A DNA stretch of 64,000 nucleotides from an uncultured Candidatus Saccharibacteria bacterium (lineage in GTDB: Bacteria > Patescibacteriota > Doudnabacteria > UBA920): NCBI GenBank assembly GCA_964532425.1, contig CAZHIA010000003.1:201748-265747 (forward strand), in the 5' to 3' direction. Below are positions 1,638 through 22,312 of this stretch, one piece after another. Each line of letters begins with the position of its first letter. The stretch's first letter is position 1. Position numbers and translations under genes: made by a program. The notes under the pieces were generated by a model. It was not told the origin of the DNA and made no database searches. It saw only the letters and a program-made list of their open reading frames with translations.

Positions 1638-1674
1638 ATATTTCTAAACTCTTCTGAATTTTCCTTTGAACAAT

Positions 1675-2407: not shown

Positions 2408-2420
2408 GATGAGAGCAGGT

Positions 2421-2975: not shown

Positions 2976-3020
2976 TCAATCAGAAGTTTATTTCCACTCA
3001 CAAGTGGAGTTGTACTATTG

Positions 3021-3788: not shown

Positions 3789-3906
3789 TGCTTTAAAGAG
3801 TTTATTAACAGCAATAATTATATCATAAAGTAAGTGTTGACAATTCAGCGGTTTTATGCCAATATATCATGTTGTCTGAAAATGAAGAGGAGGAAGTAAA
3901 AACAAT

Positions 3907-4821: not shown

Positions 4822-4843
4822 CCATCAGTCGCGCAAACACTCT

Positions 4844-4873
4844 AGCCACCAGTTCACGCTGGTGGCTTTTATT
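4844..4873 (+). terminator. rho-independent terminator
   Basis: AGCCACCAG-TTCACG-CTGGTGGCT followed by TTTTATT. Confidence 0.55.
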
Positions 4874-4913
4874 AATCCCCTCCATGGTGGCCATGAAGGA
4901 ACCAAATTTATGT

Positions 4914-4942
4914 AAAAAGCCCACCAATTTACATTGGTGAGC
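4914..4942 (-). terminator. putative terminator hairpin for 4929..5459 gene
   Basis: CACCAAT/ATTGGTG stem overlapping stop codon, T-run on minus strand. Confidence 0.35.
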
Positions 4943-5459: not shown

Positions 5460-5562
5460 AATCCTCCTTAGAAAAAATATTATACACCGCTGAATGAAAA
5501 TATAAAAGCACCGCCGAATGGGGGTGCTTTTGCTAGGTGAATTTTTGCGAGTTTACCGGTCC

Positions 5563-6423: not shown

Positions 6424-6526
6424 ACTTTCCTCCTGTAAAACATTCAACAATACCACAACAGGCGATTTTGGTCAACTCTTTATTTTTTTAGTAAAATAAT
6501 CTATAATATCAAAGAATCTAACACGT

Positions 6527-6576
6527 TGGGGTGTCGCCAAGTGGTAAGGCATCCCGATTGGATCGGGGCATTCGAA
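6527..6576 (+). tRNA. tRNA-Pro(UGG)-like 5' segment (acceptor 5' strand, D arm, anticodon arm, variable loop, first 3 nt of T stem); interrupted
   Basis: TGGGGTG-TC-GCC-AAGTGGTAA-GGC-A-TCCCG-ATTGGAT-CGGGG-CATTC-GAA then diverges; anticodon TGG at 6559-6561. Confidence 0.45.
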
Positions 6577-6581
6577 AGAGT

Positions 6582-6821
6582 ATGTACTCGGTATATATCT
6601 TAGAGAATCCCCTAGGGAAGCTCTACATTGGGCAGACCGATAATGTTGCGGAAAGATTGGAAAGGCACAATCGGAGCGGTACAAATTATACATCCCACAA
6701 AGGTCCCTGGAGAATAATTTATACAAAAGAGTTTTTGACCCGTTCCGAAGCGCTAGGGTATGAAAAGTATTTAAAAAGTCTTAAAAGTTCCCGGTATATA
6801 AAAACTGAGATCGTTCGTTAA
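6582..6821 (+). CDS. GIY-YIG nuclease, YhbQ/UPF0213-like (79 aa)
   Basis: VYILENPLGKLYIGQTDNVAERLERHN = GIY-YIG core (YIG, Arg, Glu), aligns with E. coli YhbQ; AAGAG SD-like upstream; ORF begins inside the tRNA fragment. Confidence 0.75.
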   Translation: MYSVYILENPLGKLYIGQTDNVAERLERHNRSGTNYTSHKGPWRIIYTKEFLTRSEALGYEKYLKSLKSSRYIKTEIVR

Positions 6822-6930
6822 TTTTTTTCTTCCACCCTATTGGGGTGTCGCCAAGTGGTAAGGCAGCGCCCTTTGGAGGCGCCATTCGAAGGTTCGAATC
6901 CTTCCACCCCAGCCAGGTGGAAGAAAAAAA
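6822..6930. repeat. perfect 15-bp inverted repeats TTTTTTTCTTCCACC / GGTGGAAGAAAAAAA bracketing tRNA-Gln
   Basis: IR-L 6822-6836, IR-R 6916-6930; exact reverse complements. Confidence 0.8.
6841..6915 (+). tRNA. tRNA-Gln(UUG), CCA encoded
   Basis: cloverleaf: acceptor TGGGGTG/CACCCCA (U1-A72), G73, D arm GCC-AAGTGGTAA-GGC, anticodon arm GCGCC-CTTTGGA-GGCGC (TTG 6873-6875), T arm GAAGG-TTCGAAT-CCTTC. Confidence 0.85.
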
Positions 6931-6946
6931 TTAGCCAATGCATCTA

Positions 6947-7011
6947 GTCAGTGGTAAGACATCCCGATTGGATCGGGACATTCGAAGGTTCGAATCCTTC
7001 CACCCCAGCCA
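6947..7011 (+). tRNA. tRNA-Pro(UGG)-like 3' segment (D arm through CCA) lacking a matching 5' acceptor strand
   Basis: GTC-AGTGGTAA-GAC-A-TCCCG-ATTGGAT-CGGGA-CATTC-GAAGG-TTCGAAT-CCTTC-CACCCCA-G-CCA; 7 nt at acceptor position (ATGCATC) cannot pair with CACCCCA. Confidence 0.45.
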
Positions 7012-7013
7012 TG

Positions 7014-7046
7014 AAAAAAGTATCCCCGTAAGGTGATACTTTTTTC
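7014..7046 (+). terminator. rho-independent terminator after tRNA cluster
   Basis: 14-bp stem AAAAAAGTATCCCC/GGTGATACTTTTTT (1 mismatch), GTAA loop, T-run. Confidence 0.55.
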
Positions 7047-7292
7047 ATTATGCGGACAAGATGGTGGTACCTTTCTCGATTTCGCACCGCCAATAATGAT
7101 GCTGATATAATTTCTTGTTTCTAACCTCTCTCTGTCTCTCCCCATTTCATTGGGGAGAGGACATACTAAGAAGCCAATCTATAATTACATATGAACTAGC
7201 GCGAGTGGCCAGCATAAAAGATACCCTGGACATGAGCTTCTATATATGGTATCCTGTGAGGTCTTAAAAAGACTTTCGAACAAGGAGGTAGT

Positions 7293-7667
7293 ATGGAAAC
7301 AGCTCACACAGGTGACAACTTACCGCATTTCCAAATCTGTGGGTGCGGCAAGCATGGAAGAGTAGTATTTCCCGACGGCAGGACCGGAGGGGAATTCGCA
7401 TCACAGGCACAAGGCAGACTTTGGATGGAGTACGCGGCACTGGTCGACGCATTCCAAAACGTGGATATCTTCCCCGAGGGAAAACTACAGCACCTCTTCG
7501 AAGAGATTCAAATCTCCCCGCTCCCCGACCAAATCGAACCCGACGCTTACATTCTCAAGGTAGTCGACACCTGGAATGCGGCCAAACTCCACCAACCCAG
7601 CCTGAACCCGGTTAATTTCCACCATGTCATGGACCGGCTGTGGGATTATAATGCCTTTGAGCAGTAA
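7293..7667 (+). CDS. hypothetical protein
   Basis: SD AAGGAGG then ATG; 124 aa; higher-GC block. Confidence 0.6.
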   Translation: METAHTGDNLPHFQICGCGKHGRVVFPDGRTGGEFASQAQGRLWMEYAALVDAFQNVDIFPEGKLQHLFEEIQISPLPDQIEPDAYILKVVDTWNAAKLHQPSLNPVNFHHVMDRLWDYNAFEQ

Positions 7668-7675
7668 CCAGCCTC

Positions 7676-7708
7676 GGCGGCGCGATCACCTCGCGCCGCC
7701 TTTATTTT
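7676..7708 (+). terminator. rho-independent terminator
   Basis: GGCGGCGCGA-TCACC-TCGCGCCGCC then TTTATTTT. Confidence 0.6.
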
Positions 7709-7711
7709 AAA

Positions 7712-7738
7712 TCTCCTCCATGGGGACCATGGAGGAGA
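7712..7738. repeat. 12-bp perfect palindrome TCTCCTCCATGG-GGA-CCATGGAGGAGA
   Basis: member of CCATGG-cored hairpin family. Confidence 0.6.
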
Positions 7739-7821
7739 CCACCATTGACATACATCACTAAATGTGTTATTTTTATTTGTTCAATTTGCTATTTTCAAAA
7801 ACCTCAGGAGGAAGCAAAAAG

Positions 7822-8265
7822 ATGACTCTGTTTCCCAATCAGATCATGGCTAAGCTGGCCCAGCTTGACCCTACTGCGTGTATCCGATACAGATCAAGCT
7901 TTAAGGAGACTGATCCGCGAGTTTGGTATGTTGACCTGGGTCGCATCGTGGTAAGTTCGGAGCGCGGTGGCTTTAACAGCCATCTCCACGGCACAGACGG
8001 CCCAACTCCCGACATAGCGTTATATAAAACGTGGGAAGCCATACTGGAATTTTTCCGAACGTATCCGGAAGGGTTCTTCCTGCTCTTCAGCTGCCCTCCC
8101 AATGTTCCCATCCCCGGTGATACTCCGCAAGCGTGGGTCCGCTGGGATGAACGCCAGGACGATTGGGTGAATGTCAAGCCGACAGCTCAAAGTCTGCAGG
8201 CACATCACATACCAGCCGATAGGATCGTTTCCTACACGGACCACGCTCTCGCAAGTCGGCGATAA
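7822..8265 (+). CDS. hypothetical protein
   Basis: start set at MTLFPNQ Met preceded by GGAGGAAG; 147 aa. Confidence 0.5.
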   Translation: MTLFPNQIMAKLAQLDPTACIRYRSSFKETDPRVWYVDLGRIVVSSERGGFNSHLHGTDGPTPDIALYKTWEAILEFFRTYPEGFFLLFSCPPNVPIPGDTPQAWVRWDERQDDWVNVKPTAQSLQAHHIPADRIVSYTDHALASRR

Positions 8266-8284
8266 CAGATAAAGGAGATATACA

Positions 8285-8803
8285 ATGAGCGCGCATGTTG
8301 TGACACCTATTGTCGACCCGACGAATCCGGTCGACTACTCCAAGACCGTAACGCCGCCCAACTACAAGTGCGGCAAGTGTGGCGCTACGAACTGCAAACT
8401 CTGGCGCGAATACAACACGTTTCTCGAGCACCAGCAACTGCTCTGCGTGAAATGTGCCGGAGAAGAAGAGCGAAAGAAGGTTTGCGACATTGATGCGAAC
8501 GGAAAAATCCAGTTCGAACGGCTCTGGCGCACGGACCAGATCGGCTGGATGATCCCCGCTGTACCGACCGAAGAGAATGATACCTTCTGGGGATATTCGT
8601 CGGTTCCCGCTGCCGGCTGTGAGTGGTGGTACCGGCTGCCCTCCATCTCCGAACAAACCAGAAACGAGCTCAGAAAGCTCGCTGTGACAGTCATCGATCA
8701 TGCGAAGAGTCGAGCGCGCCGCGGCCGCAAGCCGTCCATGGCGTATTGGGGAGAACGAAACCCCAACAAAGCGCTCGCGCTCGCTCGTAAGTTCGCGGCA
8801 TAA
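8285..8803 (+). CDS. hypothetical protein with CxxC...CxxC zinc-ribbon
   Basis: SD AAAGGAGA; CGKCGATNC and CVKCAG cysteine pairs. Confidence 0.55.
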   Translation: MSAHVVTPIVDPTNPVDYSKTVTPPNYKCGKCGATNCKLWREYNTFLEHQQLLCVKCAGEEERKKVCDIDANGKIQFERLWRTDQIGWMIPAVPTEENDTFWGYSSVPAAGCEWWYRLPSISEQTRNELRKLAVTVIDHAKSRARRGRKPSMAYWGERNPNKALALARKFAA

Positions 8804-8818
8804 GCCGCGCAAATTCAA

Positions 8819-8858
8819 ACGCCTGTCCAGGACCAAATCTTGGACAGGCGTATTTTAT
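8819..8858 (+). terminator. rho-independent terminator
   Basis: ACGCCTGTCCA...TGGACAGGCGT followed by ATTTTATT. Confidence 0.55.
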
Positions 8859-8860
8859 TA

Positions 8861-8889
8861 AACCCCTTGATGGTTACCATCAAGGGGTT
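8861..8889. repeat. 13-bp perfect palindrome AACCCCTTGATGG-TTA-CCATCAAGGGGTT
   Basis: between convergent genes; CCATCA/TGATGG core, 3-nt loop. Confidence 0.6.
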
Positions 8890-8898
8890 GTTGATGTA

Positions 8899-9237
8899 TC
8901 AGTCGCGACTTTTGCTGCGGGCAACTTCCACTTCGAGCTCGGTCATAAACTCTTCCTTGGTACAGAGGCCAAGCGACTCGAACTCGCCAAGAAAGTGCCA
9001 CCAGCCCGCGACTTTGTGCTGCCAGAATAGCTGCATGGCGCGTTTTTTGTCGGCTTCGGTCCGGACTGCCGGATAGACATCGCGCCTGCCTACGTCCAGG
9101 CCGTGATCCGCAAGAAATCGATACTGCTGGCCCAATTGGGAAAGATCGCCGTCGCCGACAATGAAGTCGTACTCGGCATCATACCTGCCAGCATGGGACA
9201 GGGAATCTAAAGTTCCCGGAGCAAATGAAAATTGCAT
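8899..9237 (-). CDS. hypothetical protein
   Basis: start at MQFSFAPG Met with AAGGAGG SD; 112 aa. Confidence 0.5.
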   Translation of the reverse strand: MQFSFAPGTLDSLSHAGRYDAEYDFIVGDGDLSQLGQQYRFLADHGLDVGRRDVYPAVRTEADKKRAMQLFWQHKVAGWWHFLGEFESLGLCTKEEFMTELEVEVARSKSRD

Positions 9238-9302
9238 GACGACCTCCTTTTTAGAACTCAATAGAGTACACCCGACCGGCCAAAAAGTCAATCGCCGACA
9301 TA

Positions 9303-9338
9303 AATAAAACCCGCAGCGCGTAGTGATACGCGCTGCGG
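9303..9338 (-). terminator. rho-independent terminator of rtcB
   Basis: CCGCAGCGCGTA-TCAC-TACGCGCTGCGG followed by GTTTTATTT on minus strand. Confidence 0.6.
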
Positions 9339-9346
9339 ACCGAAGA

Positions 9347-10585
9347 CTAATCCTTATATGGGTCGAATTCGTTCTCGCCCGCCATGGCGACAATGAGCGG
9401 ACGAAGCGTGTGGAGGATTTCGATTGTATCCCCCTGCGCTTTCAATACATCCGGCAGCCGGCGATAAGCGTGCGGACTTTCGTCCAAGCCTCCACCTCGC
9501 AATATGACACCCTTTTCGGCCAGCCAAGCCTGCATCATCTCCGGACTGACCTTGCCCGGTTTGATGATTTCACCGGAGCGGAACTTGCGCTTACCCGCGG
9601 CTTCGGTCCGGCTCATGACCCTGCCGGCACCGTGCACCGTGGAGAACAACGCCTGTTCCTGGTCGAAAAGAACTTCCGGTTCGGTAGACACCGTACCCTG
9701 GACAATGACGGCATCGTCCCCCATTGAGCCGCCAATAAAACCTTTCTGTCCGGGATACGCCGGAGTAGCGCCCTTACGGACTACAATAAGATCGCGGCCG
9801 CCATGCGCCTCTTCCCAGGCGAAGTTGTGATGGTTATGAACCAGCTCAACTTCTTTGGCCCCGAGAATTGAAACAACTTTTCTCGCAACCCACTCGCGGC
9901 CGGTGTACGCGTACTCCCCGGCCAACTGCATCAGGTGCCAGTAGTCGTGGCCAAGTGGGTCGCTGAGCGACAACAGAATCTCGACCTCTTGCGCACCGCG
10001 GGCCTCCCACGGCTTGTTCTGCGAGAGGTTCAAAAACCCCGTTGCCACGCCATGACCAAAGCCACGGGAACCGAAGTGCACACCAACCCAGAGCACGCCG
10101 TTTTCATCTGCGAGCACATCCACGTAGTGGTTGCCCGAGCCGACGGTGCCCAGCTGGTTACGGGCGCGGTCTTTGAGACTGTCGCGCTGGCTCCGGTCGC
10201 CAACGAGCGACCACGCATCACTCTCAAAGAGCGGATGGTCAACCGGCGCATCGCCCGCGTTGTTAGCGCGGCCAACACCGAAGCTGATGGTCGCAGCGAT
10301 CTGGTCCGCGATCTCCGCAAGCCGCTTGTTAATGGCTGGCTGATCACTGCCGAGACTCGAAAGTGAAAGGTCAGTCCTTATGGCTGCGTTGCCGCAGGCG
10401 ATATCGAAACCGACACCCACGACACTGACTTTGTTGTCATACGCTGCCACGCCACCAATGGGCATGACATAACCCTTGTGGCCATCGGCCATAAGGGCTG
10501 CAAATTCCGCCCGGCTGGCCACATCAGCAAGCTGGGCAAATGTGCCTTCATCGTGAGTACCGAAAACTCCCAAGATTCTTCCCAT
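9347..10585 (-). CDS. rtcB: RNA ligase RtcB (short ~410-aa form)
   Basis: DGHKGYVMPIGGV, GFDIACG and C-terminal HNHAG-like His motifs of RtcB family. Confidence 0.8.
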   Translation of the reverse strand: MGRILGVFGTHDEGTFAQLADVASRAEFAALMADGHKGYVMPIGGVAAYDNKVSVVGVGFDIACGNAAIRTDLSLSSLGSDQPAINKRLAEIADQIAATISFGVGRANNAGDAPVDHPLFESDAWSLVGDRSQRDSLKDRARNQLGTVGSGNHYVDVLADENGVLWVGVHFGSRGFGHGVATGFLNLSQNKPWEARGAQEVEILLSLSDPLGHDYWHLMQLAGEYAYTGREWVARKVVSILGAKEVELVHNHHNFAWEEAHGGRDLIVVRKGATPAYPGQKGFIGGSMGDDAVIVQGTVSTEPEVLFDQEQALFSTVHGAGRVMSRTEAAGKRKFRSGEIIKPGKVSPEMMQAWLAEKGVILRGGGLDESPHAYRRLPDVLKAQGDTIEILHTLRPLIVAMAGENEFDPYKD

Positions 10586-10799
10586 AATGATTTCCTCCCT
10601 TGAAATTCTTCATATTATACACTATTTTATAATTTTTGTCAAGAGTAAGCCATTTTTAAACTTAGCCTTCTCTGTTACATTATTTGGTTTACACTCTCAC
10701 TACGATACAAAGAAGTATCACAGCAAGGGGTGGAAATAAAAAAACCGCGCCTGAGAAAACCCAAAGCGCGGGATTGAAACTACTGGACCACAGTGGTCC

Positions 10800-11705
10800 T
10801 TACCGATTGCCAATGGACAAATTACCGGAGCCGATTACCACTTTGTGCGGGCGGTTTTCCACGTACGCCAAGCTCACATTACCTGATCCCGTCATTCTCA
10901 CATCCGCGTCTTGGGCCTTGCCGCCAAAATTTACGTTACCGGAACCGGTCATGTCGACTTTGATGTTAGAAACAGCCCCGCGGTCGATGCGTACTTGAGC
11001 AGAACCGACGAGATTAATGTTCACGTGCCCATTCGTCTCGGCGATGCGAATTCTTCCGCTCCCGCTGAGAAGCAGATCTGTGTCAGTGACCTTTCCAGCT
11101 TGGATTTGGTTCGATCCGTCCAGGTTCACCAGAAGCGGGCCGAGCGTATCCCCCACCTCGGTTTTACCTCTGACCCGGTTCAGTCTCACCGGTGCGCCTT
11201 GGGGAACCTTGATGTCGACCTTCGCTAAGTCGGCACCTCCACCAGCCGTCAAGACAACATTGTTGACGATCGAATCGAAGACTCTGCCGGAAATAACAGT
11301 AGCGCCACTGACTACATACTTCGTGGCCCGGCTGGGCTGCCCGGAAATTACAAGGCACCCTTTTGATTCGTTCATAACAATCGCCTCGACCGCATCCTGC
11401 TCCCCTGAGATAGTCACCTCGATGACATCTCCTGCATGGGGCTCTATGGAAACCTTGGCGTGAACGCCGGAAACTTCCAGCACCTGGCTCCGGAATAACA
11501 ACGGACCTTTCGTAACCAATTCTGGTCCGGTGTCATTTGGCGGCGAACCGATGGTAATGTATCCCTTACCGCGATTGACGACCTGACCTGTCGATACATC
11601 ACACCAGCTGCCGTCTTCAAACTCAACGCGGCCGCCTTTGATAGCACTGAACAGCTTGTCCGAGTATACGTCTTTACCGTTTATGTTGGCAATAAGTTTT
11701 GCCAT
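10800..11705 (-). CDS. DUF2807/DUF4097-like (head GIN domain) beta-repeat protein
   Basis: repeated LSGSGRIRI / MTGSGNVNF / MTGSGNVSL strands; start moved to MAKLIAN Met with GGGGGA SD. Confidence 0.5.
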   Translation of the reverse strand: MAKLIANINGKDVYSDKLFSAIKGGRVEFEDGSWCDVSTGQVVNRGKGYITIGSPPNDTGPELVTKGPLLFRSQVLEVSGVHAKVSIEPHAGDVIEVTISGEQDAVEAIVMNESKGCLVISGQPSRATKYVVSGATVISGRVFDSIVNNVVLTAGGGADLAKVDIKVPQGAPVRLNRVRGKTEVGDTLGPLLVNLDGSNQIQAGKVTDTDLLLSGSGRIRIAETNGHVNINLVGSAQVRIDRGAVSNIKVDMTGSGNVNFGGKAQDADVRMTGSGNVSLAYVENRPHKVVIGSGNLSIGNR

Positions 11706-11914
11706 TACGTCCCCCTTTAAATCAGCGAATAAACTCCAGTATTCATGCTGACCTGCCAGTTTACCATATAAACCGCATCCTGAAAAGACCGTTTTTCTTA
11801 TGCACCAAACCCTCTTCTCCTGCCGTAGTACTATGTATGAAATAAACCAATAGGAAACTTGTATTAATGAATGCAACCTCAAAAGAGATTATTAAGTCGG
11901 AAAGGAACATAATT

Positions 11915-12727
11915 ATGAGCATATCGAAAAAAACCGCAATCATAACCGGAGCAGCCATTATCATTGCCAGCGCCGGTATTATCCGCGTCAGCTCTGCAGC
12001 CGGAACTTCGAGCACCCGTATGAGCAATCTGGTCAATGCCATTGCCAGCAAATTTAACCTTAACCCAAATGATGTCCAGCAGGTGGTTGACCAGACTCTG
12101 CAGCAGGAGCGGTCACAGCGGCAAGCGCAGTTTCTCCAAAATTACACCACGAGAATCAACCAGGCAGTGCAGAATGGACAGCTGACCCAGGATCAGGCCA
12201 ATAAAATTTTGGCTAAAGAACAGGAAGTCCAGAATTTTCTGAACAGTCTTTCCGGAAAGACCGCACAGGAACGCCAGTCCGCAGTACAGCAGGAACTCAC
12301 CTCCCTTCAGCAGTGGGCACAGGATAATAACATTCCGCAACAATACTTACCCATCGGCTTTGCCATGAAAGGCCATATGCGCGGCGGTTTCGGTATGATG
12401 GGACAGCACCCGGCTGCAGTCGGAACCGTCACGGGCGTATCTGGCAATAGCATTACCATAACTGACGGAAACAACACGACCTACACCGTAGATGCATCGA
12501 AGGCAACAATCACGAAATTGACCCCGGGCACCAACGGCGCAGCACCAACCCAAGCCACCGTGGCTGTGTCCCAGATCCAGACCGGCGACAAACTTGCGGT
12601 TGTAGGAACTCTTTCCGGCAATACCATTTCCGCTACGCAAATTACTGACGGCGTATTCGGCCGCATGGGAATGGGCGCAGGCATGGGCAGATGGATGATG
12701 CAGCCGGCCAACTCGGCAACCCAGTAA
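11915..12727 (+). CDS. hypothetical secreted Gln-rich protein
   Basis: start at MSISKK with GGAAAGGA SD; N-terminal signal/anchor; Q-rich coiled region; Gly/Met-rich tail. Confidence 0.5.
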   Translation: MSISKKTAIITGAAIIIASAGIIRVSSAAGTSSTRMSNLVNAIASKFNLNPNDVQQVVDQTLQQERSQRQAQFLQNYTTRINQAVQNGQLTQDQANKILAKEQEVQNFLNSLSGKTAQERQSAVQQELTSLQQWAQDNNIPQQYLPIGFAMKGHMRGGFGMMGQHPAAVGTVTGVSGNSITITDGNNTTYTVDASKATITKLTPGTNGAAPTQATVAVSQIQTGDKLAVVGTLSGNTISATQITDGVFGRMGMGAGMGRWMMQPANSATQ

Positions 12728-12787
12728 AAAACCGAGTCTGAATATCACAATTCAGGATCACGTCAAAAATATTGAAAGGAAATTCAT

Positions 12788-13702
12788 ATGCCGCTCAAAA
12801 TTAAATTGATGGCAACAGCAGCGCTGCTGGCCTCACTGCTCGGCTTTTCGATTCTGACTGCCGCACCGGCGCTCGCCTATAGCGGCAGGCACCAAGCCAA
12901 CCCGCCGAACATTACCGTCATCCGCCATCGCTTCGGAAACAGAGGCTTTGGTTTGGCATTCGGCTACTACCGTCTCATGAGTCCCCAAACCGGGGCAACC
13001 ACTGCATTAACGCCGCAAGCGAGCACCGTAGCACAACAGGCCTCCCCTGCCGTAGTCTACATAAACGCATATAAGAATGTACCGACATATTCGGTTGAGT
13101 ATACCCAGGCAGCTGACGGGACCATTCAGGTCAATCAAACGCAGACCGGCACCGTTAATCAGGAGATATCTTCGGGAAGCGGATTCTTCATTACATCCGG
13201 CGGTTATATACTGACCAACAAACATGTAGTCTCTGATGCGACCAACACATATATGGTCAACTATAACAACACGGAAATTCCTGCCCAAGTCATCTACCGG
13301 GATCCGAACTACGATCTGGCCATAGTGAAAGTCGATGGCAACAATTATCCCACACTCCCACTCGCAGATTCGTCAGGCGTGACTGTCGGCGAAAACGTAG
13401 TGGCTGTAGGGAACGCCCTTGGCCGGATTACTGACTACGCCACGCAGGGCACGGTCACCGCGCTATCCCAAAACATCACCGTTGACGGCGATAACGGCAG
13501 TGCTGAAAACTTGCAGAACGTGCTGCAAACGAACGCCAAACTTTACCCAGGCGATTCCGGCGGCCCGCTTTTGGACTTGAACGGAAAAGTGATTGGGGTC
13601 AATACCGCCACAACTGTTGGCAGCAGATTCGCCTCAGCCGGATTTTCCATTCCTATCAACACCGCAAAGAGCGTAATCTCCGCAGCCGGCATTACTATGT
13701 AA
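12788..13702 (+). CDS. trypsin-like (S1/Do-family) serine protease without PDZ domain
   Basis: signal peptide; catalytic triad contexts TNKHVV, DLAIVKV, GDSGGPLLD. Confidence 0.75.
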   Translation: MPLKIKLMATAALLASLLGFSILTAAPALAYSGRHQANPPNITVIRHRFGNRGFGLAFGYYRLMSPQTGATTALTPQASTVAQQASPAVVYINAYKNVPTYSVEYTQAADGTIQVNQTQTGTVNQEISSGSGFFITSGGYILTNKHVVSDATNTYMVNYNNTEIPAQVIYRDPNYDLAIVKVDGNNYPTLPLADSSGVTVGENVVAVGNALGRITDYATQGTVTALSQNITVDGDNGSAENLQNVLQTNAKLYPGDSGGPLLDLNGKVIGVNTATTVGSRFASAGFSIPINTAKSVISAAGITM

Positions 13703-13716
13703 ATACTTCAGTATTA

Positions 13717-13750
13717 AAATCCGCCCCGCAATGTGCAGGGGCGGATTTTG
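13717..13750 (+). terminator. rho-independent terminator
   Basis: AAATCCGCCCC-loop-GGGGCGGATTTT. Confidence 0.6.
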
Positions 13751-13776
13751 CATCTGACAAATGTATGGACAACCGG

Positions 13777-14133
13777 CTATCGCGGAGTAAAAATCACCTT
13801 CCTGCCACGGCGGTAGTAGACCGGCATTCCTTCATAACTTCGCGGAAACACCGCTGGTTGTTTCAGGGGAATCGCTTTACTGCCAATCGTTTCTCTTCCT
13901 TTGGGAAGATGCTCCGACTGGCGCGCATCAAGCGAAATTTCTGCCGGAATGTATTCTACGAGTAAGGCATCAATTCCCACCGGACAGCCAAACCCTTTAC
14001 TCCAGGCAGCTGTTGACTGCCAAGACGAATAGAGAGCTATTATCTGAACGGGTGGAATATCGTCCCCCTCGAGCGTACCAGGCCTGTTCCAGAATTGTTT
14101 ACTGAACCGCTCCCTCACTTGGTTTTTATCCAA
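13777..14133 (-). CDS. hypothetical protein
   Basis: 118-aa ORF, no motif recognised. Confidence 0.4.
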   Translation of the reverse strand: MDKNQVRERFSKQFWNRPGTLEGDDIPPVQIIALYSSWQSTAAWSKGFGCPVGIDALLVEYIPAEISLDARQSEHLPKGRETIGSKAIPLKQPAVFPRSYEGMPVYYRRGRKVIFTPR

Positions 14134-14263
14134 ACACCCTCCTTTTTAAGCCCTCCCATTCTACCTAACATTTAGCTTTTGTCAACCTGCCGGGTATCCC
14201 CGCGGAGGTATGCAATTTGACTTTTCTTCCAAAGCTGATACATTGACCCAGAAGGAGGAATAT

Positions 14264-14608
14264 ATGCCGGTAACTATGATACCCCGGCAAGTCGGCAACA
14301 TTACCGTATTTGACTGCGCCGGTCGCATTACGCTCGGCGAAGGAGCCACACACTTGCGCGACACTCTTCGCGAAGCGGCCGCAAAAGGCAATCAGCAGAT
14401 CTTGCTAAACCTGCACGGCGTTACCTATGTCGATCCGTCCGGCATTGGAGAGCTGGTATCCGGATTCACGACTATCACAAACCACGGCGGCCGATTAAAA
14501 CTCCTCGCGCCGGTCAGACGCGTCGAAGACCTCCTGAGAATTACCAAGCTGTATACGGTCTTTGAAGTATTCACCGACGAACCAACCGCAATACGCAGTT
14601 TCAACTAA
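14264..14608 (+). CDS. STAS-domain anti-sigma-factor antagonist (SpoIIAA-like)
   Basis: start MPVTM with GAAGGAGG SD; ITVFDCAGRITLG ... VTYVDPSGIGELV ... STAS pattern. Confidence 0.65.
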   Translation: MPVTMIPRQVGNITVFDCAGRITLGEGATHLRDTLREAAAKGNQQILLNLHGVTYVDPSGIGELVSGFTTITNHGGRLKLLAPVRRVEDLLRITKLYTVFEVFTDEPTAIRSFN

Positions 14609-14628
14609 AACTCCAGAAAGGACTGATC

Positions 14629-14874
14629 ATGACCTGCCCGAAATGCAAAGGAAGAAAATCTGTCATAGTCAAAGTTCCCGCTCTCGGCAACATTCACGCC
14701 GAAGTCAGCTGCCCGGACTGCAAAGGCACGGGTAAAATCGGCGAACCAGGAGTCTGCCAGGAATGCAACGGAAGCCGGACCGTTATGCACGACATGGGCG
14801 GTTTCTTCGCCGAAGTCAGATGCCCAAGCTGTTCAGCTCCCGTAGTCTTGGAGCCCGAACAAGCAAGCTCATAG
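14629..14874 (+). CDS. small DnaJ-type zinc-finger protein (4 x CxxCxG)
   Basis: CPKCKGRK, CPDCKGTG, CQECNGSR, CPSCS repeats. Confidence 0.55.
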   Translation: MTCPKCKGRKSVIVKVPALGNIHAEVSCPDCKGTGKIGEPGVCQECNGSRTVMHDMGGFFAEVRCPSCSAPVVLEPEQASS

Positions 14875-14894
14875 ACATCGGCTGGCACACAACA

Positions 14895-14925
14895 ACCCGG
14901 ACCACTTTGGTCCGGGTCTTTTTTA
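14895..14925 (+). terminator. rho-independent terminator
   Basis: ACCCGGACC-ACTT-GGTCCGGGT then TCTTTTTTATTT. Confidence 0.65.
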
Positions 14926-14929
14926 TTTC

Positions 14930-15760
14930 TTATATTATTGGGTGAACGGGCAGCTTACGCTTGCCCCTACGGAGAACGATCGAATGTGATAAAAGCGGAA
15001 CAAATCGGTTCTCATATGGTTGATCCATAACAAAAAGTAACGGGTGGCACTGCGTAGAGTGCCACCCGTGCTGTACGAGCGTTATGCGACAATGGAGGTC
15101 TACCGCACGGCGCACAGAGAGTGCGCTAAATATGGTTATGTTTCCTGCGAAATGTAGCAGAGCCGTATCGGATATCGCAAGACACCACATCGTGCCCACA
15201 TCTTCGGTCCCAGTCCTAGCTCACTGCGCTAGATTGTTCCGTGCAACTTCCACGGGATGAACCGGATTGTCAACATCAAACTTCGATGTATCCTCCTACC
15301 TTAGGTAGTGGTCTGGGCTGAATCCCTTTAATCTCAGATCCTGAAGCTACCCTGAGATTTTCGACCAACCATTGCAACTGGACATTATTCAACTTTAGGC
15401 CCGGGTACCACCCTGGCATCAACTTGCCGAACTTCCGGCAAGACTTGAAAGTAGTCCTTGTGTACTTCAGACAGTCTTTCTTGTTTTTCCAAGGGCCTCA
15501 TCCTATGCGGGAACCAAATCCCACGTTCGGCTTCCAGGCAAACTGCTGCCCTTCTCGCCTTATCGTCACGGCATCAGGAATCGAGTTTACGGCTCTTTAA
15601 CAGAACCGATGGTTCTTTCTTGTCATTTCTAATGTCCAGTACGGATTTTTGGTCCGTAAAATCATTTTACTCTTTGTGTGTACAGTGTCAAATTAGTTAT
15701 CAACAAGCGGGAAAAGTGCACTGATCCGTAACAACACCAGTTTCCCCGCGTCAGACCTCC
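14930..15760. other. ORF-free hairpin-rich segment (candidate structured ncRNA or decayed gene)
   Basis: no ORF above ~90 aa on either strand; multiple strong hairpins (e.g. 15040-15069 CGGGTGGCAC/GTGCCACCCG; 15107-15126; 15423-15440). Confidence 0.3.
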
Positions 15761-15774
15761 GGTAAGGAGGAATA

Positions 15775-16419
15775 TTGTTTAAACCAGCTGTCTGTATATG
15801 CGTGTTTGTCGCCAGTGTTCCCGCCCTGGCACAGTACCAGAGTGGGTTCGGCGTGGAATTACGACCGGGAGTCTTGATTCTACCGGATTACCTACAATCC
15901 ACAACGCTGCGGATCAACCCCACACTCACCCAAACCTTCCTCGCTCCCCACCGGGGTTTTTACCTGTTCAGCGGCAGCATTGCACCGGAATTGTATTGGC
16001 ACCGCTTTGCGGTCCGTGGCGGACCGGTATTTACCTACCCGATGTACCCGACCAGGGACACTACGGCATTAACCTCAAGCCAGTTCTCAATCGGCATGGA
16101 GCAAAAGATGATTGTCTCCGGCTTTGGGGAAATGCAGTTCAACTTAACGAAAAGTTTCTCGGTCATAGCGGGCTACACCCAGAACCGCTACAACCTCGAA
16201 GCCAACTACCCTCCGGGTACGATAAATCGCTTCTCCCGGCATACACTCCGTTTACCCTACGGCGGCATCCGTTTCCAGCCCAGTGTGCTCGGAATGTACG
16301 CTACAATCGGTCCACTGTCCGAAAGCATGACACTACTGCGGCCAAATACCGACATAACCATGAGCACTCCAACTTATTTCGTCTCCGCAGGTCTGGTCTT
16401 TGACTTCTCCTGGCATTAG
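15775..16419 (+). CDS. secreted beta-rich protein, outer-membrane beta-barrel-like
   Basis: TAAGGAGG SD then TTG start; signal peptide; alternating amphipathic strands; C-terminal ...VFDFSWH. Confidence 0.45.
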   Translation: MFKPAVCICVFVASVPALAQYQSGFGVELRPGVLILPDYLQSTTLRINPTLTQTFLAPHRGFYLFSGSIAPELYWHRFAVRGGPVFTYPMYPTRDTTALTSSQFSIGMEQKMIVSGFGEMQFNLTKSFSVIAGYTQNRYNLEANYPPGTINRFSRHTLRLPYGGIRFQPSVLGMYATIGPLSESMTLLRPNTDITMSTPTYFVSAGLVFDFSWH

Positions 16420-16564
16420 CAGACCGCTTCACAAAGCGAGGTTAGAAAAAACCTCGCAACCGAAAGCCGTTTCATCCGCTCCGGCGGTCTTGGAACGGCC
16501 ATTTTCATTTCCAAATAGCTGCTCCTGAACTATACTTAAAGCATAGATATTGCAGGAGGAAATA

Positions 16565-17680
16565 ATGCAGTTTCTTACCGGCATCGACACTCCGATGCCA
16601 GATGTTATGAAAGATGGCGGCGTTGTCTGGAACCATCATGCGAAATGGAATCAATGGGAAACACATTGGGAAGATGACCTGCGCTGGCATGCCGACAACG
16701 GTTTTCGGCTGTTACGCTTCAATATTCCATGGTCGCTGATCCAGCCCAAACAGAACATCTTTGACTTCACGGTACTTGGGCCACAGATCGAGCTTGCCCG
16801 CAAACTTGGCATCGAGATCGTCTATCCGCTCGCGCACTTCAACTACCCGTACTGGATCTGCCGTGACGACGAGCTTCATCCCACACTGGCTTCAGGATTA
16901 GCTGATGCACTGGCACTGTATGCCGAGGTAGCCAAACGGGAATTCTCTTTCCACTATATTATTCCCATAGTCGAAATCAGCATCGATTGTATGCTGCGTA
17001 GCGCGGATTCGCGATGGGCTGACCACAGCGGAGTCTGGGCGCCCCATGCCCGGGGCGTTCGCGAAGTGATGGAACACAATCTCACCAGGGCTTTCGTGAC
17101 CGCCGCGGCCAACCTCCAGCACCGATCCGGCTCGCTGATCCTCTGCTCAGAACCTGCTTCCGCGCTGGACATCGTAAAAAATATCAGTCGCTATTGCGAC
17201 ATCCTCGGCATGGATTACTATCCAAAATTCCACCGTCATCCAAAAAACGGCGAACCAGATCTCTCAGACCGCCTCAAACAATGGAGCATCCTGTTCAAAC
17301 GCCCGATCGCCATAACCGAATACGGAATTCCCGAAACGTACGATTGGGACAGGCAACGCGACCAGCCCGATTTGCACATTCGTGCCGGAGATTGCCGGAA
17401 CCGGACCCAGGCAGCCAAGTACTTATTCCGGGAGATCCGCAAAGCCAAACAAGCCGGAGTGACGATTCCCTTCGCGGGATGGTTCCCGAGCATTGATAAC
17501 CGCGGCTGGGAAAGCCTGCTCACGAAAGACCCAGGAAATGCTGCCGGCAATCGCGCCGGCATTGTCGATCTGGAGTGGGAAGATAGCAAACTCCGGCGCG
17601 TCCCCTGCGCTGAACTGGTTGCGGAACTTCACACCCTTAGCGATTACAAGCAAGCCAAAGAAGCATCCACATCAACGTAA
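16565..17680 (+). CDS. TIM-barrel glycoside hydrolase (GH1/GH5-like)
   Basis: AGGAGG SD; ITEYGIPE resembles GH1 nucleophile motif I/VTENG. Confidence 0.5.
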   Translation: MQFLTGIDTPMPDVMKDGGVVWNHHAKWNQWETHWEDDLRWHADNGFRLLRFNIPWSLIQPKQNIFDFTVLGPQIELARKLGIEIVYPLAHFNYPYWICRDDELHPTLASGLADALALYAEVAKREFSFHYIIPIVEISIDCMLRSADSRWADHSGVWAPHARGVREVMEHNLTRAFVTAAANLQHRSGSLILCSEPASALDIVKNISRYCDILGMDYYPKFHRHPKNGEPDLSDRLKQWSILFKRPIAITEYGIPETYDWDRQRDQPDLHIRAGDCRNRTQAAKYLFREIRKAKQAGVTIPFAGWFPSIDNRGWESLLTKDPGNAAGNRAGIVDLEWEDSKLRRVPCAELVAELHTLSDYKQAKEASTST

Positions 17681-17685
17681 GACAC

Positions 17686-17716
17686 AAAAACCCCGTCGCG
17701 ATCGCGACGGGGTTTT
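17686..17716. terminator. bidirectional terminator
   Basis: AAAAA-CCCCGTCGCGATCGCGACGGGG-TTTT palindrome between convergent genes. Confidence 0.65.
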
Positions 17717-17764
17717 ACTATTCACTCAGCACTAATCACTATGTACTATGAGCTAATTACTGTA

Positions 17765-19507
17765 TCACTTCTTCTCCACCGGCCTTGTCGGCGCAATATG
17801 GTAATAGCTCAAAATGAATTGCGCTAATTCTCCCCACGCCGGAGCGGCGGTGCTCTCCGCGAAGCTGACATCGCGAGGATGGTCGATGCGCACAAGCATG
17901 ACAAACTGAGGATCGTCTATAGGGCCGTATCCGATAAAGGAACCAATATTGTCATCTGTCACATACCTGCCGTCTTTGGAAACCTGGGCAGTACCAGTCT
18001 TGCCTCCGATATAGTAACCGGACACCCCCGCTTTTTTCCCATGCCCGTTTTCCACCACGCTCACCAGCATCGCAGAAAGAATGTTCGCAGTTTTGGCGCT
18101 TATGACCTGGCCTACAACTTCAGGCTGTGTCGCATAGGTCTTTCCTTCCGGAGTGATGCGTGACTGGACAATATACGGCTTCATCATCTTGCCTTCATTA
18201 GCGAGTGCACCATACGCCTGTAGCATTTGGATTGGCGTGACCATAAACCCCTGACCAAAGCTCGCCGTGTCATAATTGACCGCAATATTGGCGCGTAGGT
18301 TATCCAAATTCCCGGACGTCTCAGCCACCTCGATACCAGTTTTCCGCCCAAACCCAAAACGCTGAATAGCTTTGTAAAATTCAGGGTTGCCGATCTGATT
18401 CTTGGAAAAAATCGCCCCGGTGTTCAAGGACTCCTCTAAGACTTGGGTCATGGTCCGTATGCCGTGAGCTTTGTGGTCCGAGTTCTGGATTTTTGTGCCA
18501 TCCACTTCTTCCACTACGCCAGTATCGTTGTACGTCGTATCCGGAGTGACTTTGCCGGCATCTACGGCTGCAGCCATGGTCACCGACTTGAATGTCGAAC
18601 CCGGTTCATAATTTCCGGTTGTGCATTCGTTATTGAACACTTTGGGATCGGTGGCTTTGTTATATTCATTCGGATCAAAATCCGGGTATCCGGCCATTGC
18701 CAAAATGGCACCGGTCTTCGGATTGGCCACTATAACACACCCGCTGTCAGCTCCGTGAGCAACAACCGAATCTTTCAGAACTTGCTGGGCTTTGAACTGA
18801 ATCGTTTTATCAACGGTCAAAATAAGATTATCCCCATCACGGGCCGGCACAAAGGACCGCTTGGAGCCAAAGATCCAGGCACCGTTCGTATCTTTTTCTT
18901 CTTCGAGCAAACCCGGAGTTCCGGCGAGCTGGGATTCAAAAGCCCGTTCGAGCCCATAGAGGCCAACCTTCTTGCTGTCCTTGTTATAGCCGACAAAACC
19001 CAATACCTGACTGAGCAGATTTTTCTCAGGATAAAAACGGGTATCCTCGGAATCAAAATAAATACCCGGTAAATTCAGGTCTTTGATTTTTTGTTGCTGC
19101 TCATCGGTCAATTGCTTCTTAATGGGAACATATTTCTTTTCCGTGTTCGTGAGTTTAACCAGCACGTCCTTGCTGTCCATGGCAATCACGGGTGAAAGCT
19201 TGGCCGCTGCATCGGCAGGGTTTACGATCTCCTGGGGTACGGCATAAACCAGATAACTCTTAATATCCGTCGCCACGTCGGCAGCATCGCCGGACAGGCG
19301 ATCCACGATTTTAATTTCACCACGGCTGGGAAAAAGCTTTTGGTAAATGCTATGCTGGTCTTCGGCCCGAGCCCGCGCAGCGGCTCCCCTAACAACCTGA
19401 AGATAGAACAGGCGCGAGACAAGTACCGTAAAACATACCAATAAAAAAACCGTAAGGACGGTGGTGCGGTTTGTAAAAACGTCATTGCGAACTTTTCGAC
19501 TTGGCAT
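17765..19507 (-). CDS. ftsI: peptidoglycan D,D-transpeptidase FtsI (class B PBP)
   Basis: N-terminal TM, PBP dimerisation region, transpeptidase STFK-like/SxN/KTG(T) context; downstream of ftsL-rsmH-mraZ. Confidence 0.85.
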   Translation of the reverse strand: MPSRKVRNDVFTNRTTVLTVFLLVCFTVLVSRLFYLQVVRGAAARARAEDQHSIYQKLFPSRGEIKIVDRLSGDAADVATDIKSYLVYAVPQEIVNPADAAAKLSPVIAMDSKDVLVKLTNTEKKYVPIKKQLTDEQQQKIKDLNLPGIYFDSEDTRFYPEKNLLSQVLGFVGYNKDSKKVGLYGLERAFESQLAGTPGLLEEEKDTNGAWIFGSKRSFVPARDGDNLILTVDKTIQFKAQQVLKDSVVAHGADSGCVIVANPKTGAILAMAGYPDFDPNEYNKATDPKVFNNECTTGNYEPGSTFKSVTMAAAVDAGKVTPDTTYNDTGVVEEVDGTKIQNSDHKAHGIRTMTQVLEESLNTGAIFSKNQIGNPEFYKAIQRFGFGRKTGIEVAETSGNLDNLRANIAVNYDTASFGQGFMVTPIQMLQAYGALANEGKMMKPYIVQSRITPEGKTYATQPEVVGQVISAKTANILSAMLVSVVENGHGKKAGVSGYYIGGKTGTAQVSKDGRYVTDDNIGSFIGYGPIDDPQFVMLVRIDHPRDVSFAESTAAPAWGELAQFILSYYHIAPTRPVEKK

Positions 19508-21619: not shown

Positions 21620-21882
21620 CATAAGATCGCAGATTAAAATCACAGATTTTTAGACACCACGCAGATAGCACTGATAGGGGCCATAAATCCGAAACACCAT
21701 ACTGACGGAGATGACTGACATTGTAGGTTAACCGAATCTTTGCAGAGCATCTGCATTATCTGCGCAAATCTGCGTATCTGTGATCCTTTTTGGTCTGCGG
21801 ACTTCTGCACCCTGCCTGCTCCAGGTAGAGGGAGACTTCGACCTGGCCCAAACAGGTGGGGTGATGCAGAAGCCCTAAAATA

Positions 21883-22181
21883 GTATCCACAAGGTCCACC
21901 ACTTATCCCCACTTTTTACCACTTTGTACCATTTCAAATTCATTATATACCACCTTTTGACACAGGTCAAAGCCTAAACAAGAACCCTGTATATACCAAA
22001 AAACCGCATATAAATGCGGTATAACTTGAATTACTCCCTGTCTTTAAAAAACTTATCCCCCACTCAAAAAATGATTTTATTTATTGTGGTGGATAAAATC
22101 AAAAAAGTGGATAAATTTGACCACAATACCAAGTCAAAGGCAAATTTTTTTAGCTCATGTCAGCACCTATTTTTATCCACG
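21883..22181. promoter_or_regulatory. cluster of six DnaA-box-like 9-mers (each 8/9 to TTATCCACA) in 670-bp AT-rich noncoding region upstream of mraZ
   Basis: GTATCCACA 21883, TTATCCCCA 21903, TTATCCCCC 22053, GGTGGATAA 22088, AGTGGATAA 22106, TTATCCACG 22173. Confidence 0.4.
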
Positions 22182-22195
22182 TAATGACATGACCT

Positions 22196-22300
22196 ATACA
22201 AATCTACAGATGTATCCGAATCTACAAATACCTACAAATTCCGGTAAGTGGAATTTGTAGGTATTTGTAGATCTGTAGCAAATTTGTAAATTTGCAGCAC
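22196..22300. repeat. repeat element containing 21-bp perfect IR CTACAAATACCTACAAATTCC / GGAATTTGTAGGTATTTGTAG
   Basis: IR arms 22222-22242 and 22250-22270; TCTACAGAT and TTTGTAAATT units shared with 39692-39790. Confidence 0.6.
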
Positions 22301-22312
22301 TCCATCGTACAA

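What the first reader, a model, noticed from the sequence alone, without database searches (positions are those of the whole stretch)
14930..15760. ~830-bp ORF-free, hairpin-dense segment: candidate large structured RNA or decayed gene
Between a strong terminator (14895-14925) and the SD of the next gene (15759) there is no ORF over ~90 aa on any frame. The segment contains many stable stem-loops, for example CGGGTGGCAC-TGCGTAGA-GTGCCACCCG (15040-15069), GCGCAC-AGAGAG-TGCGC (15107-15126), TTGCCG-AACTTC-CGGCAA (15423-15440), CAGAACC-GAT-GGTTCTT and TACGGA-TTTTTGG-TCCGTA. It starts GTGCG at 15121 but has no recognisable group II domain V. I also checked by eye for RNase P P4 (AAGUCCGG/CCGGCUUA), tmRNA ends (CUCCACCA), SRP helix 8 and 5S motifs, and none fits. 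Its length and structure are in the range of large bacterial ncRNAs (OLE/GOLLD/ROOL-like), a degenerate intron, or a frameshifted pseudogene.
Basis: seen in the sequence. Interest (0 to 1): 0.6.

Follow-up and report, generated by a model that had tools for sequence, protein, structure and literature searches.

The report
Orphan non-coding unit, promoter to terminator
The 830-base gene-free stretch is truly non-coding and matches no known RNA or protein family; sequence signals suggest a roughly 625-base RNA made from the opposite strand, but no related genome carries this stretch, so whether it has a function cannot yet be tested.

Summary
The segment is real; an independent assembly reproduces it at 100% identity. 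It is non-coding: there is no ORF over 89 aa, no 3-base periodicity, and codon scores are zero or negative in all six frames. It is the longest intergenic region in the window. Its GC (0.48-0.49) equals that of coding DNA, whereas most other spacers have 0.26-0.46.

"Hairpin-dense" holds only modestly. The core fold z is -3.0 (+ strand) and -2.0 (- strand), and raw folding energy is ordinary. The strongest hairpin (15040-15069) is a minus-strand intrinsic terminator. An 11/12 sigma-70-type promoter lies on the same strand at 15691-15664. Both signal classes are about ten times enriched over shuffles in this window, and nearly all other members flank genes. This is the only strong terminator with no ORF in front of it.

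My best reading (0.42) is an independent minus-strand transcription unit of about 625 nt, running from ~15657 to ~15030, that makes a non-coding RNA of unknown function.

Rfam 15 gave nothing inside the segment, even at E<=10. Pseudogene tests, recoding and repeat/mobile-element tests were all negative.

The locus lies in lineage-specific DNA just beyond a synteny break at ftsI. No relative carries it, so conservation and covariation cannot be tested. It is a modestly interesting, unverified singleton.

The parts
14629..14874 (+). Upstream neighbour: an 81-aa zinc-finger protein with four CXXC motifs (DnaJ central-domain type). It is the last gene of the STAS-ZnF pair.
   Evidence: Pfam DnaJ_CXXCXGXG, 35.9 bits, E 8.9e-9. 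85% identical to the gene that follows STAS in ENA contig L083. Period-3 signal 4.6-4.9.
14895..14926 (+). Intrinsic terminator of the STAS-ZnF operon: a 10-bp stem with 7 GC pairs, followed by a T-run.
15030..15069 (-). Minus-strand intrinsic terminator: a perfect 12-bp stem (8 GC pairs), a 6-nt loop, then TTACTTTTTGT. This is the predicted 3' end of the non-coding transcript.
   Evidence: Of 15 strong terminator-like hairpins in the window (0-2 in shuffles), it is the only one I could not place just after a gene's stop codon.
15070..15657 (-). Body of the predicted ~625-nt non-coding transcript. It has GC 0.49, no ORF with coding signal, and moderately more structure than expected.
   Evidence: no coding signal. 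(z -2.0 on the minus strand, -3.0 on the plus strand). (GC). (helices with pair probability >=0.8).
15664..15691 (-). Sigma-70-type promoter, TTGACA-16-TAAAAT (11 of 12 matches). The predicted transcription start is near 15657-15655.
   Evidence: There are 10 sites with >=11/12 matches in the window, against 0.93+/-1.2 in shuffles. By my reading against the ORF list, about seven of the other nine lie upstream of a gene on the same strand.
15377..15640 (.). Long-range perfect 11-bp helix, ACTGGACATTA (15377-15387) with TAATGTCCAGT (15630-15640). It closes a ~260-nt domain in the folds of both strands.
   Evidence: pair probability 0.98 on both strands. My estimate of the chance expectation for such a repeat in 830 nt is about 0.08, so it is only suggestive.
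15756..15770 (+). Small hairpin, CCTCC-GGTAA-GGAGG, that contains the Shine-Dalgarno sequence of the next gene.
   Evidence: sequence. Function not tested.
15775..16419 (+). Downstream neighbour, transcribed divergently from the predicted RNA: a 201-214-aa ORFan with a signal-peptide-like N-terminus.
   Evidence: Its only match among 5.8 billion proteins is itself. No Pfam hit. Weak but positive codon score and period-3 signal in its middle part.

Best explanation
The segment holds an independent, non-protein-coding transcription unit on the MINUS strand. RNA polymerase would start about 7 nt downstream of a near-consensus sigma-70-type promoter (15691-15664). It would transcribe about 590 nt that contain no gene and stop at a strong intrinsic terminator (hairpin 15069-15040, T-run to ~15030). 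The terminator sits back-to-back with the terminator of the convergent STAS-ZnF operon. The product would be a ~625-nt moderately structured RNA with a 5' stem-loop, several local hairpins and one 11-bp long-range helix.

Shown: the sequence signals, their enrichment in this genome, and the lack of coding signal.

Inferred: that the unit is transcribed, and that the RNA rather than a peptide is the product. No partner gene, known motif or homologue points to what the RNA does. As a guess, I would expect a trans-acting or scaffold-type RNA specific to this lineage.
For: 1. Promoter. TTGACA-16-TAAAAT matches 11 of 12 positions. Sites this good number 10 in the window against 0.93+/-1.2 in 30 dinucleotide shuffles. 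By my reading against the ORF list, about seven of the other nine lie upstream of a gene on the same strand; examples are RtcB at 10642, mraZ at 21970, and those at 30385, 57258 and 63933.

2. Terminator. Fifteen strong terminator-like hairpins occur, against 0-2 in shuffles. The others sit within a short distance after a gene's stop codon. The one at 15069-15040 (-) is the only one with no ORF in front of it.

3. No coding signal between the two signals. Codon log-odds are zero or negative in all frames. Period-3 power is 0.3-1.5, against a window median of 2.8.

4. Intergenic-region profile. This is the longest intergenic region in the window, and its GC of 0.48-0.49 equals that of coding DNA. 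Most other spacers have 0.26-0.46. Long, GC-rich intergenic regions are the class that published screens describe as enriched for structured ncRNAs (abstract of PMC8723152, listed).

5. Fold. The core z is -2.0 (-) and -3.0 (+), at or beyond the range of 12 coding controls.

6. Both signals are intact while the interior has no trace of a reading frame. That is easier to explain if the interior never needed one.

7. Two assemblies agree at 100% identity.
Against: - There is no expression data.
- There is no homologue anywhere, so conservation and covariation are entirely untested.
- The structure excess is modest. It is stronger and better defined on the + strand (z -3.0; mean pair probability 0.85, against 0.67 on the minus strand). 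This disagrees with the strand indicated by the promoter and terminator.
- Raw folding energy is ordinary for this genome.
- The locus lies in lineage-specific DNA next to an ORFan, where decayed or inert sequence is common.
- Most genes in the syntenic part of the window lack a Shine-Dalgarno sequence, so a missing SD does not exclude a small protein gene.
- A>T skew on the minus strand at 15300-15750 resembles that of coding strands here and could be a relic of a lost gene.
Confidence: 0.42

Rival explanations
1. This is the relic of a lost minus-strand protein gene, or simply inert lineage-specific DNA. The promoter and terminator are leftovers or fortuitous, and any transcript has no function.
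For: - The promoter-to-terminator distance (~590 nt) is a normal gene size.
- The region lies beyond a synteny break. Relatives share gene order from window ~29800 down to ftsI and nothing after it.
- The adjacent gene is an ORFan.
- A second ORF-poor gap with coding-like GC lies 700 nt away, at 13703-14209.
- Minus-strand frames at 15279-15596 have the least negative codon scores, about 0 per codon, similar to the real small ZnF gene.
- A>T skew on the minus strand resembles that of coding strands.
- Stop-free stretches of >=70 codons number 6, against 2.6 expected (P=0.015).
Against: - No protein similarity appeared in any search.
- There is no residual 3-base periodicity.
- GC has not drifted down to the level of other spacers.
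- The promoter (11/12) and terminator (12/12 bp) are undamaged, while the interior would have to be completely degraded.
Confidence: 0.3
2. It is a long structured 5' leader of the downstream + strand gene (15775-16419). It would control that gene through structures that include the CCTCC/GGAGG hairpin over its ribosome-binding site.
For: - The fold signal is stronger and better defined on the + strand (z -3.0 to -3.4).
- The most negative local z values lie at 15301-15540 on the + strand.
- The SD sits in a 5-bp hairpin at 15756-15770.
- An upstream GGAGG at 15094-15098 can pair with the same CCTCC (repeat I5).
Against: - The best + strand promoter match is only 9/12, at 15267-15294; the next best are 8/12.
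- No riboswitch or leader model matches, even at E<=10.
- This reading does not explain the minus-strand promoter and terminator.
- The downstream gene is an ORFan with a weak coding signal.
- A 5-bp hairpin over the SD is weak evidence.
Confidence: 0.12
3. The minus-strand unit is an mRNA for one or more small proteins. Candidates are the 38-aa ORF at 15385-15501 and the 48-aa ORF at 15276-15422.
For: - Most genes in the syntenic part of the window lack an SD, so ORFs without one cannot be dismissed.
- Small ORFs are present.
- The codon score of these frames is near zero rather than clearly negative.
Against: - There is no homologue for any frame.
- There is no periodicity.
- The two candidate ORFs overlap in different frames.
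- Together they would use under a quarter of the transcript.
Confidence: 0.08

Closest known systems
Large standalone bacterial ncRNAs (OLE, ROOL, GOLLD class)
   Same: The size range is about 0.6 kb. It appears to be its own transcription unit, carries no ORF, and lies in a long intergenic region whose GC is not depressed.
   Different: No match to any Rfam 15 model, even at E<=10. The fold z-score is only -2 to -3. There is no homologue, so none of the conserved ornate structure that defines those classes can be shown. None of the usual genomic associations is present.
Ordinary promoter-to-terminator sRNA genes of bacteria (trans-acting regulatory RNAs)
   Same: A sigma-70-type promoter, a Rho-independent terminator, no ORF, an intergenic position and lineage-restricted distribution.
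   Different: It is three to six times longer than typical sRNAs. No target complementarity stood out: the best matches within the window are 13-17 nt chance-level hits.
Decayed genes in variable regions next to tRNA genes
   Same: It lies in DNA absent from relatives, between tRNA-Gln and ftsI. The tRNA carries a duplicated 3' half nearby, and the neighbouring gene is an ORFan.
   Different: No detectable protein remnant, no periodicity and no AT drift. GC3 of the surrounding genes equals that of the syntenic part of the window, and no repeats bound the block.

Membership tests
Any Rfam 15 family (including OLE, GOLLD, ROOL, HEARO, RNase P, tmRNA, SRP, 6S, group I/II introns, riboswitches) | Covariance-model score at or above the family's gathering threshold | tested here: not met
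   The whole window at gathering threshold gives only tRNA hits. In 14800-15900 at E<=10, the only two hits (20 and 15 bits) cover the upstream terminator at 14800-14926.
Pseudogene of a known protein family | Significant similarity of one or more reading frames to a protein or protein profile | tested here: not met
   - Pfam on ten fragments: best E 0.07.
- Six-frame concatenate against 5.8 billion proteins: none at E<=10.
- 73-aa fragment against 1.84 billion representatives: only a hit inflated by repeats, with each single stretch of 18-31 aa at pairwise E ~1e-4 or weaker.
- Response regulator and kinase of STAS relatives: E>=0.07.
Pseudogene of a known protein family | Residual codon structure (3-base periodicity, codon bias) in at least part of the segment | tested here: not met
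   Period-3 power is 0.3-1.5, against a window median of 2.8. Codon log-odds are zero or negative.
Independently transcribed bacterial ncRNA gene | Own promoter and own terminator on one strand, with no ORF between them | tested here: met
   Promoter at 15691-15664 (11/12) and terminator at 15069-15030, both on the minus strand. Both signal classes are about 10-fold enriched over shuffles and are otherwise associated with genes. These are sequence signals only.
Independently transcribed bacterial ncRNA gene | Detected transcript with defined ends | not testable with these tools
   No expression data are available.
Structured ncRNA (any new class) | Conservation with covarying base pairs in relatives | not testable with these tools
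   No homologous DNA was found in any of these:
- 79 ftsI loci of relatives.
- JGI metagenomes, 20-mer scan: one chance hit.
- Viral contigs.
- Plasmids and phages.
The flanking ORFan has no homologue. The closest relative with STAS-ZnF is a 705-nt contig that ends inside ZnF.
Structured ncRNA (any new class) | Folding energy clearly below that of shuffled sequence | tested here: inconclusive
   z is -3.0 (+) and -2.0 (-) for the core, against +2.1 to -2.1 in coding controls. Raw MFE is ordinary.
Riboswitch or leader of the downstream gene | Known aptamer or leader fold, a same-strand promoter upstream, and an expression platform | tested here: not met
   No Rfam cis-regulatory hit. The best + strand promoter match is 9/12. 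The only platform-like feature is a 5-bp hairpin over the SD.
MITE, IS remnant or other repeated mobile element | Terminal inverted repeats plus further copies | tested here: not met
   No second copy in the window. No tandem repeats. The inverted repeat 15363-15387/15630-15654 is best matched at its inner ends, not its outer ends. No plasmid or phage match.
Gene hidden by stop-codon reassignment (code 4/25, as in some Patescibacteria) | In-frame stops all of one type, and gaps that fill when that codon is read as sense | tested here: not met
   Stops in every frame are a mix of TAA, TAG and TGA. Reading TGA as sense gives at most 126-190 codons that only partly cover the gap.

The most novel reading that the evidence does not exclude
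A previously undescribed ~0.6-kb structured non-coding RNA gene. It has its own promoter and terminator and occurs in an uncultivated bacterium whose closest GTDB matches are labelled Patescibacteria. It would be the first sighting of a new large-RNA class restricted to a poorly sampled lineage.
Probability: 0.15. Interest if true: 0.6.

Novelty: new member of a known kind. Interest (0 to 1): 0.33.

Why it matters
If the RNA is real, it would add a large non-coding RNA to a bacterial lineage in which I know of almost no RNA genes beyond the universal ones. Large bacterial ncRNAs are rare enough that each new class has proved informative. As it stands, this is a single sequence with no relatives, so its value is as a pointer. 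The genome has unusually clean promoter and terminator signals, which makes orphan transcription units easy to call. The same approach could be run genome-wide once transcript data or sister genomes exist. If the segment is instead a decayed gene, it has no wider importance.

Tried and rejected
- Known RNA families: Rfam at gathering threshold and at E<=10 gave nothing in the segment.
- Frameshifted pseudogene: negative in Pfam on fragments and in the six-frame search of 5.8 billion proteins.
- HMMER search of the 73-aa fragment: the E 1.9e-18 hit is an artefact of 12 repeats of a short GWYP..LNLTNV motif in a 2078-aa protein. No single stretch is significant.
- Relic of the response regulator or RsbW-type kinase that flank STAS in relatives: no similarity.
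- TGA recoding: rejected.
- Small ORFs with an SD: none, apart from the downstream gene's own start and a GAGG-3 nt-TTG of no weight. I later found that most genes in the syntenic part of the window lack an SD anyway.
- Repeat or mobile element: no other copy, no tandem repeats, no plasmid or phage match.
- Replication origin: only one DnaA-box-like site in the segment.
- Conservation: relatives' ftsI loci have no similar DNA and none of the neighbouring genes. Exact-protein look-ups found only the same organism. Contexts of STAS homologues differ. The metagenome 20-mer scan gave one chance match. Two viral scans were empty.
- A first attempt at a window-wide fold scan timed out and was rerun with smaller settings.

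Full report
**What is there.**
- Window 14875-15774 lies between two + strand genes. Upstream is an 81-aa four-CXXC zinc-finger protein (14629-14874). Downstream is a 201-214-aa ORFan (15775/15798-16403).
- The zinc-finger gene has a Pfam DnaJ_CXXCXGXG hit. It is 85% identical to the gene that follows STAS in an ENA relative.
- The longest ORFs inside the gap are 89 and 88 aa.
- A Logan assembly of SRR11567520 (L001) is 100% identical over all 875 bases compared. It bridges the segment to ftsI, rsmH and mraZ. The sequence and its context are therefore not an assembly artefact.

**Is it non-coding?** Yes, by every test I could run.
- A codon log-odds model trained on 28 long genes of the window is negative in all six frames across 14920-15760. 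Flanking genes score +0.10 to +0.25 bits per codon. The best individual stop-free fragments score about zero.
- Three-base periodicity is 0.3-1.5, where random sequence gives about 1 and the window median is 2.8.
- The longest stop-free stretch (96 codons) is what dinucleotide shuffles give (P=0.51). The count of stretches of >=70 codons is slightly high: 6 against 2.6 expected, P=0.015.
- Reading TGA as sense does not help. I checked this because some Patescibacteria use code 25 and TGA ends only 2 of 28 genes here. Stops in all frames are of mixed type, and the gap does not fill.

**Is it a pseudogene?** I found no evidence for one.
- Pfam on ten six-frame fragments gave a best E of 0.07.
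- A concatenate of all stop-free fragments of 29 aa or more, searched against 5.8 billion proteins, gave nothing at E<=10 among 8000 word-sharing candidates.
- A full HMMER scan of 1.84 billion representatives with the best-scoring 73-aa minus-strand fragment returned two repeat proteins. The stronger hit reaches E 1.9e-18 only because 12 copies of a short GWYP..LNLTNV repeat each match the same ~20 residues. No single stretch is significant.
- STAS homologues at 68-72% identity elsewhere sit between an RsbW-type kinase and a LuxR-type response regulator. Neither protein leaves a trace in or near the segment.

**Is it a known RNA?** No. Rfam 15 finds only tRNA in the whole window at gathering threshold. 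At E<=10 in 14800-15900, the only two hits are weak sRNA matches that are just the upstream terminator.

**Is it unusually structured?** Modestly.
- The whole + strand segment folds with z -3.4. The minus strand 15030-15665 folds with z -2.55.
- With both terminators removed, the core 15075-15657 gives z -3.0 (+) and -2.0 (-) with 40 shuffles. Twelve equal-length coding controls ranged from +2.1 to -2.1.
- A window-wide scan of 120-nt windows puts the segment's mean z at rank 53/1054 (+) and 117/1054 (-). Raw energies are ordinary.
- The + strand fold is better defined: mean pair probability 0.85 against 0.67.
- Both folds share several local hairpins and a perfect 11-bp long-range helix, 15377-15387 with 15630-15640. 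By my estimate its chance expectation is about 0.08.

**The new observation: transcription signals on the minus strand.**
- The most stable hairpin (15040-15069, 12 perfect pairs) is followed by a T-run only on the minus strand. It is a minus-strand intrinsic terminator, back-to-back with the + strand terminator at 14895-14917.
- At 15691-15664 on the same strand lies TTGACA-16-TAAAAT, an 11/12 match.
- These signals are informative in this genome. Sites of >=11/12 number 10 in the window, against 0.93+/-1.2 in shuffles. Read against the ORF list, about seven of the other nine lie upstream of a gene on the same strand (RtcB, mraZ and others).
- Strong terminator-like hairpins number 15, against 0-2 in shuffles. 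Read the same way, all the others follow a gene's stop codon. The one at 15069-15040 is the only one with no ORF in front of it.
- Minus-strand transcription from further upstream is unlikely. The ftsI terminator at 17716-17687 lies in between, and no other strong minus-strand promoter match occurs.
- Together the signals define a ~625-nt ORF-less transcription unit, ~15657 to ~15030.
- The segment is also the longest intergenic region of the window. It has coding-like GC (0.48-0.49), while most other spacers have 0.26-0.46. Published screens describe this length-and-GC profile as enriched for structured ncRNAs (abstract of PMC8723152, listed). It is also compatible with unannotated or recently acquired DNA.

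**Context.**
- The nearest genomes in GTDB (FtsI 63-67% identical, MraZ about 80-85%) are MAGs labelled Patescibacteria, Saccharibacteria or Doudnabacteria.
- Gene order is shared from window ~29800 down to ftsI and stops there. None of the proteins encoded in 9347-17680 occurs in the relatives' 10-kb flanks.
- In relative L004, a tRNA-Gln lies 925 nt beyond ftsI. In L030 it lies ~7 kb beyond, and in the window 10.85 kb beyond. The interval therefore varies within the clade.
- The window's tRNA-Gln is followed by a second copy of its 3' half.
- GC3 of genes on either side of ftsI is the same, so there is no compositional sign of recent transfer.
- The segment thus lies in lineage-specific DNA, flanked by an ORFan whose only database match is itself.

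**Why conservation cannot be assessed.**
- No similar DNA occurs in the 79 relatives' loci, in plasmids or phages, or in two viral-contig scans.
- One 20-mer scan of JGI metagenomes returned a single chance match with no flanking similarity.
- Exact-protein look-ups return only this organism, from two sister samples.
- The one closer relative (STAS 76%, ZnF 85%) is a 705-nt contig that ends inside ZnF.

**Verdict.**
The segment is non-coding, is not a member of any described RNA family, and shows no sign of being a pseudogene.
- My best reading is an orphan minus-strand non-coding transcription unit (confidence about 0.42).
- The rivals are: a functionless relic or inert DNA (0.30), a long + strand leader of the downstream ORFan (0.12), and a small-protein mRNA (0.08).
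- The strand favoured by the signals (-) and the strand favoured by folding (+) disagree. I cannot resolve this.
- Because it is a singleton with no transcript data, the finding deserves modest interest until one RNA-seq track or one sister genome is available.

Noticed in passing
window 21644-22312: A 669-nt ORF-free gap lies upstream of mraZ and has the lowest local fold z-scores of the window. It contains an 11/12 minus-strand promoter at 21970-21942. A ~70-nt block (~21884-21953) is 74-83% conserved upstream of mraZ in seven relatives. Five sites within one mismatch of TTATCCACA lie at 21883-22181. A ~55-nt palindrome at 22218-22274 gives only generic hairpin hits in Rfam. On the mraZ strand the boxes read TGTGGATAC and TGGGGATAA. 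From memory, this could be an MraZ operator array or DnaA boxes; I did not test either.
   Followed up: partly
window 6841-7011: tRNA-Gln (6841-6915) is followed 96 nt later by a 5'-truncated second copy. The second copy shares an exact 33-nt 3' half, CATTCGAAGGTTCGAATCCTTCCACCCCAGCCA, and gives a partial Rfam tRNA hit at 6945-7000 (30 bits). It looks like the scar of an integration at the tRNA 3' end. No matching repeat was found in 7060-18000.
   Followed up: partly
window 1-17700 versus 17765-64000: Shine-Dalgarno use differs sharply. About 8 of 11 genes left of ftsI have AGGAGG-type sites, for example RtcB, STAS, ZnF and the genes at 12788, 15775 and 16550. Only about 2-4 of 22 genes in the syntenic part do. 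GC3 is the same in both parts. Unexplained.
   Followed up: partly
window 13703-14209: This is a second ORF-poor gap with coding-like GC (0.50) and no 3-base periodicity. It lies exactly where STAS relatives carry an RsbW-type kinase. An 11/12 minus-strand promoter at 14185-14158 sits in front of a 118-aa ORF (13777-14133) that has no Pfam hit and a weak codon score. No kinase remnant was detected.
   Followed up: partly
window 14210-14874: The STAS protein is 68-72% identical to many proteins that JGI labels 'anti-sigma B factor antagonist'; NCBI assigns some of the homologues to Bryobacteraceae. The core genes, by contrast, match Patescibacteria-labelled MAGs. Here STAS is paired with a zinc-finger protein instead of a kinase and a response regulator. 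The ZnF gene was not called in the Logan annotation of L001, but it is conserved.
   Followed up: partly
window 9347-10585: An RtcB RNA ligase gene (Pfam E 1.4e-61) has a perfect 12/12 promoter at 10642-10614 and a strong terminator at 9341-9308. It lies about 4.5 kb from the segment. I found no link to it.
   Followed up: no
window 41110-41782: Another 673-nt ORF-free gap (GC 0.42). Its only Rfam hit at E<=1 is a weak ylbH-leader match (16 bits against a gathering score of 50). It has no similarity to the relatives' loci.
   Followed up: partly
window 2368-2396: A perfect 12/12 sigma-70-type site lies on the + strand, at the junction of two minus-strand ORFs (2024-2407 and 2421-2975), with no + strand gene of >=100 aa downstream. 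It may be an antisense or orphan promoter.
   Followed up: no
whole window: TGA ends only 2 of 28 long genes; TAA ends 19 and TAG ends 7.
   Followed up: partly
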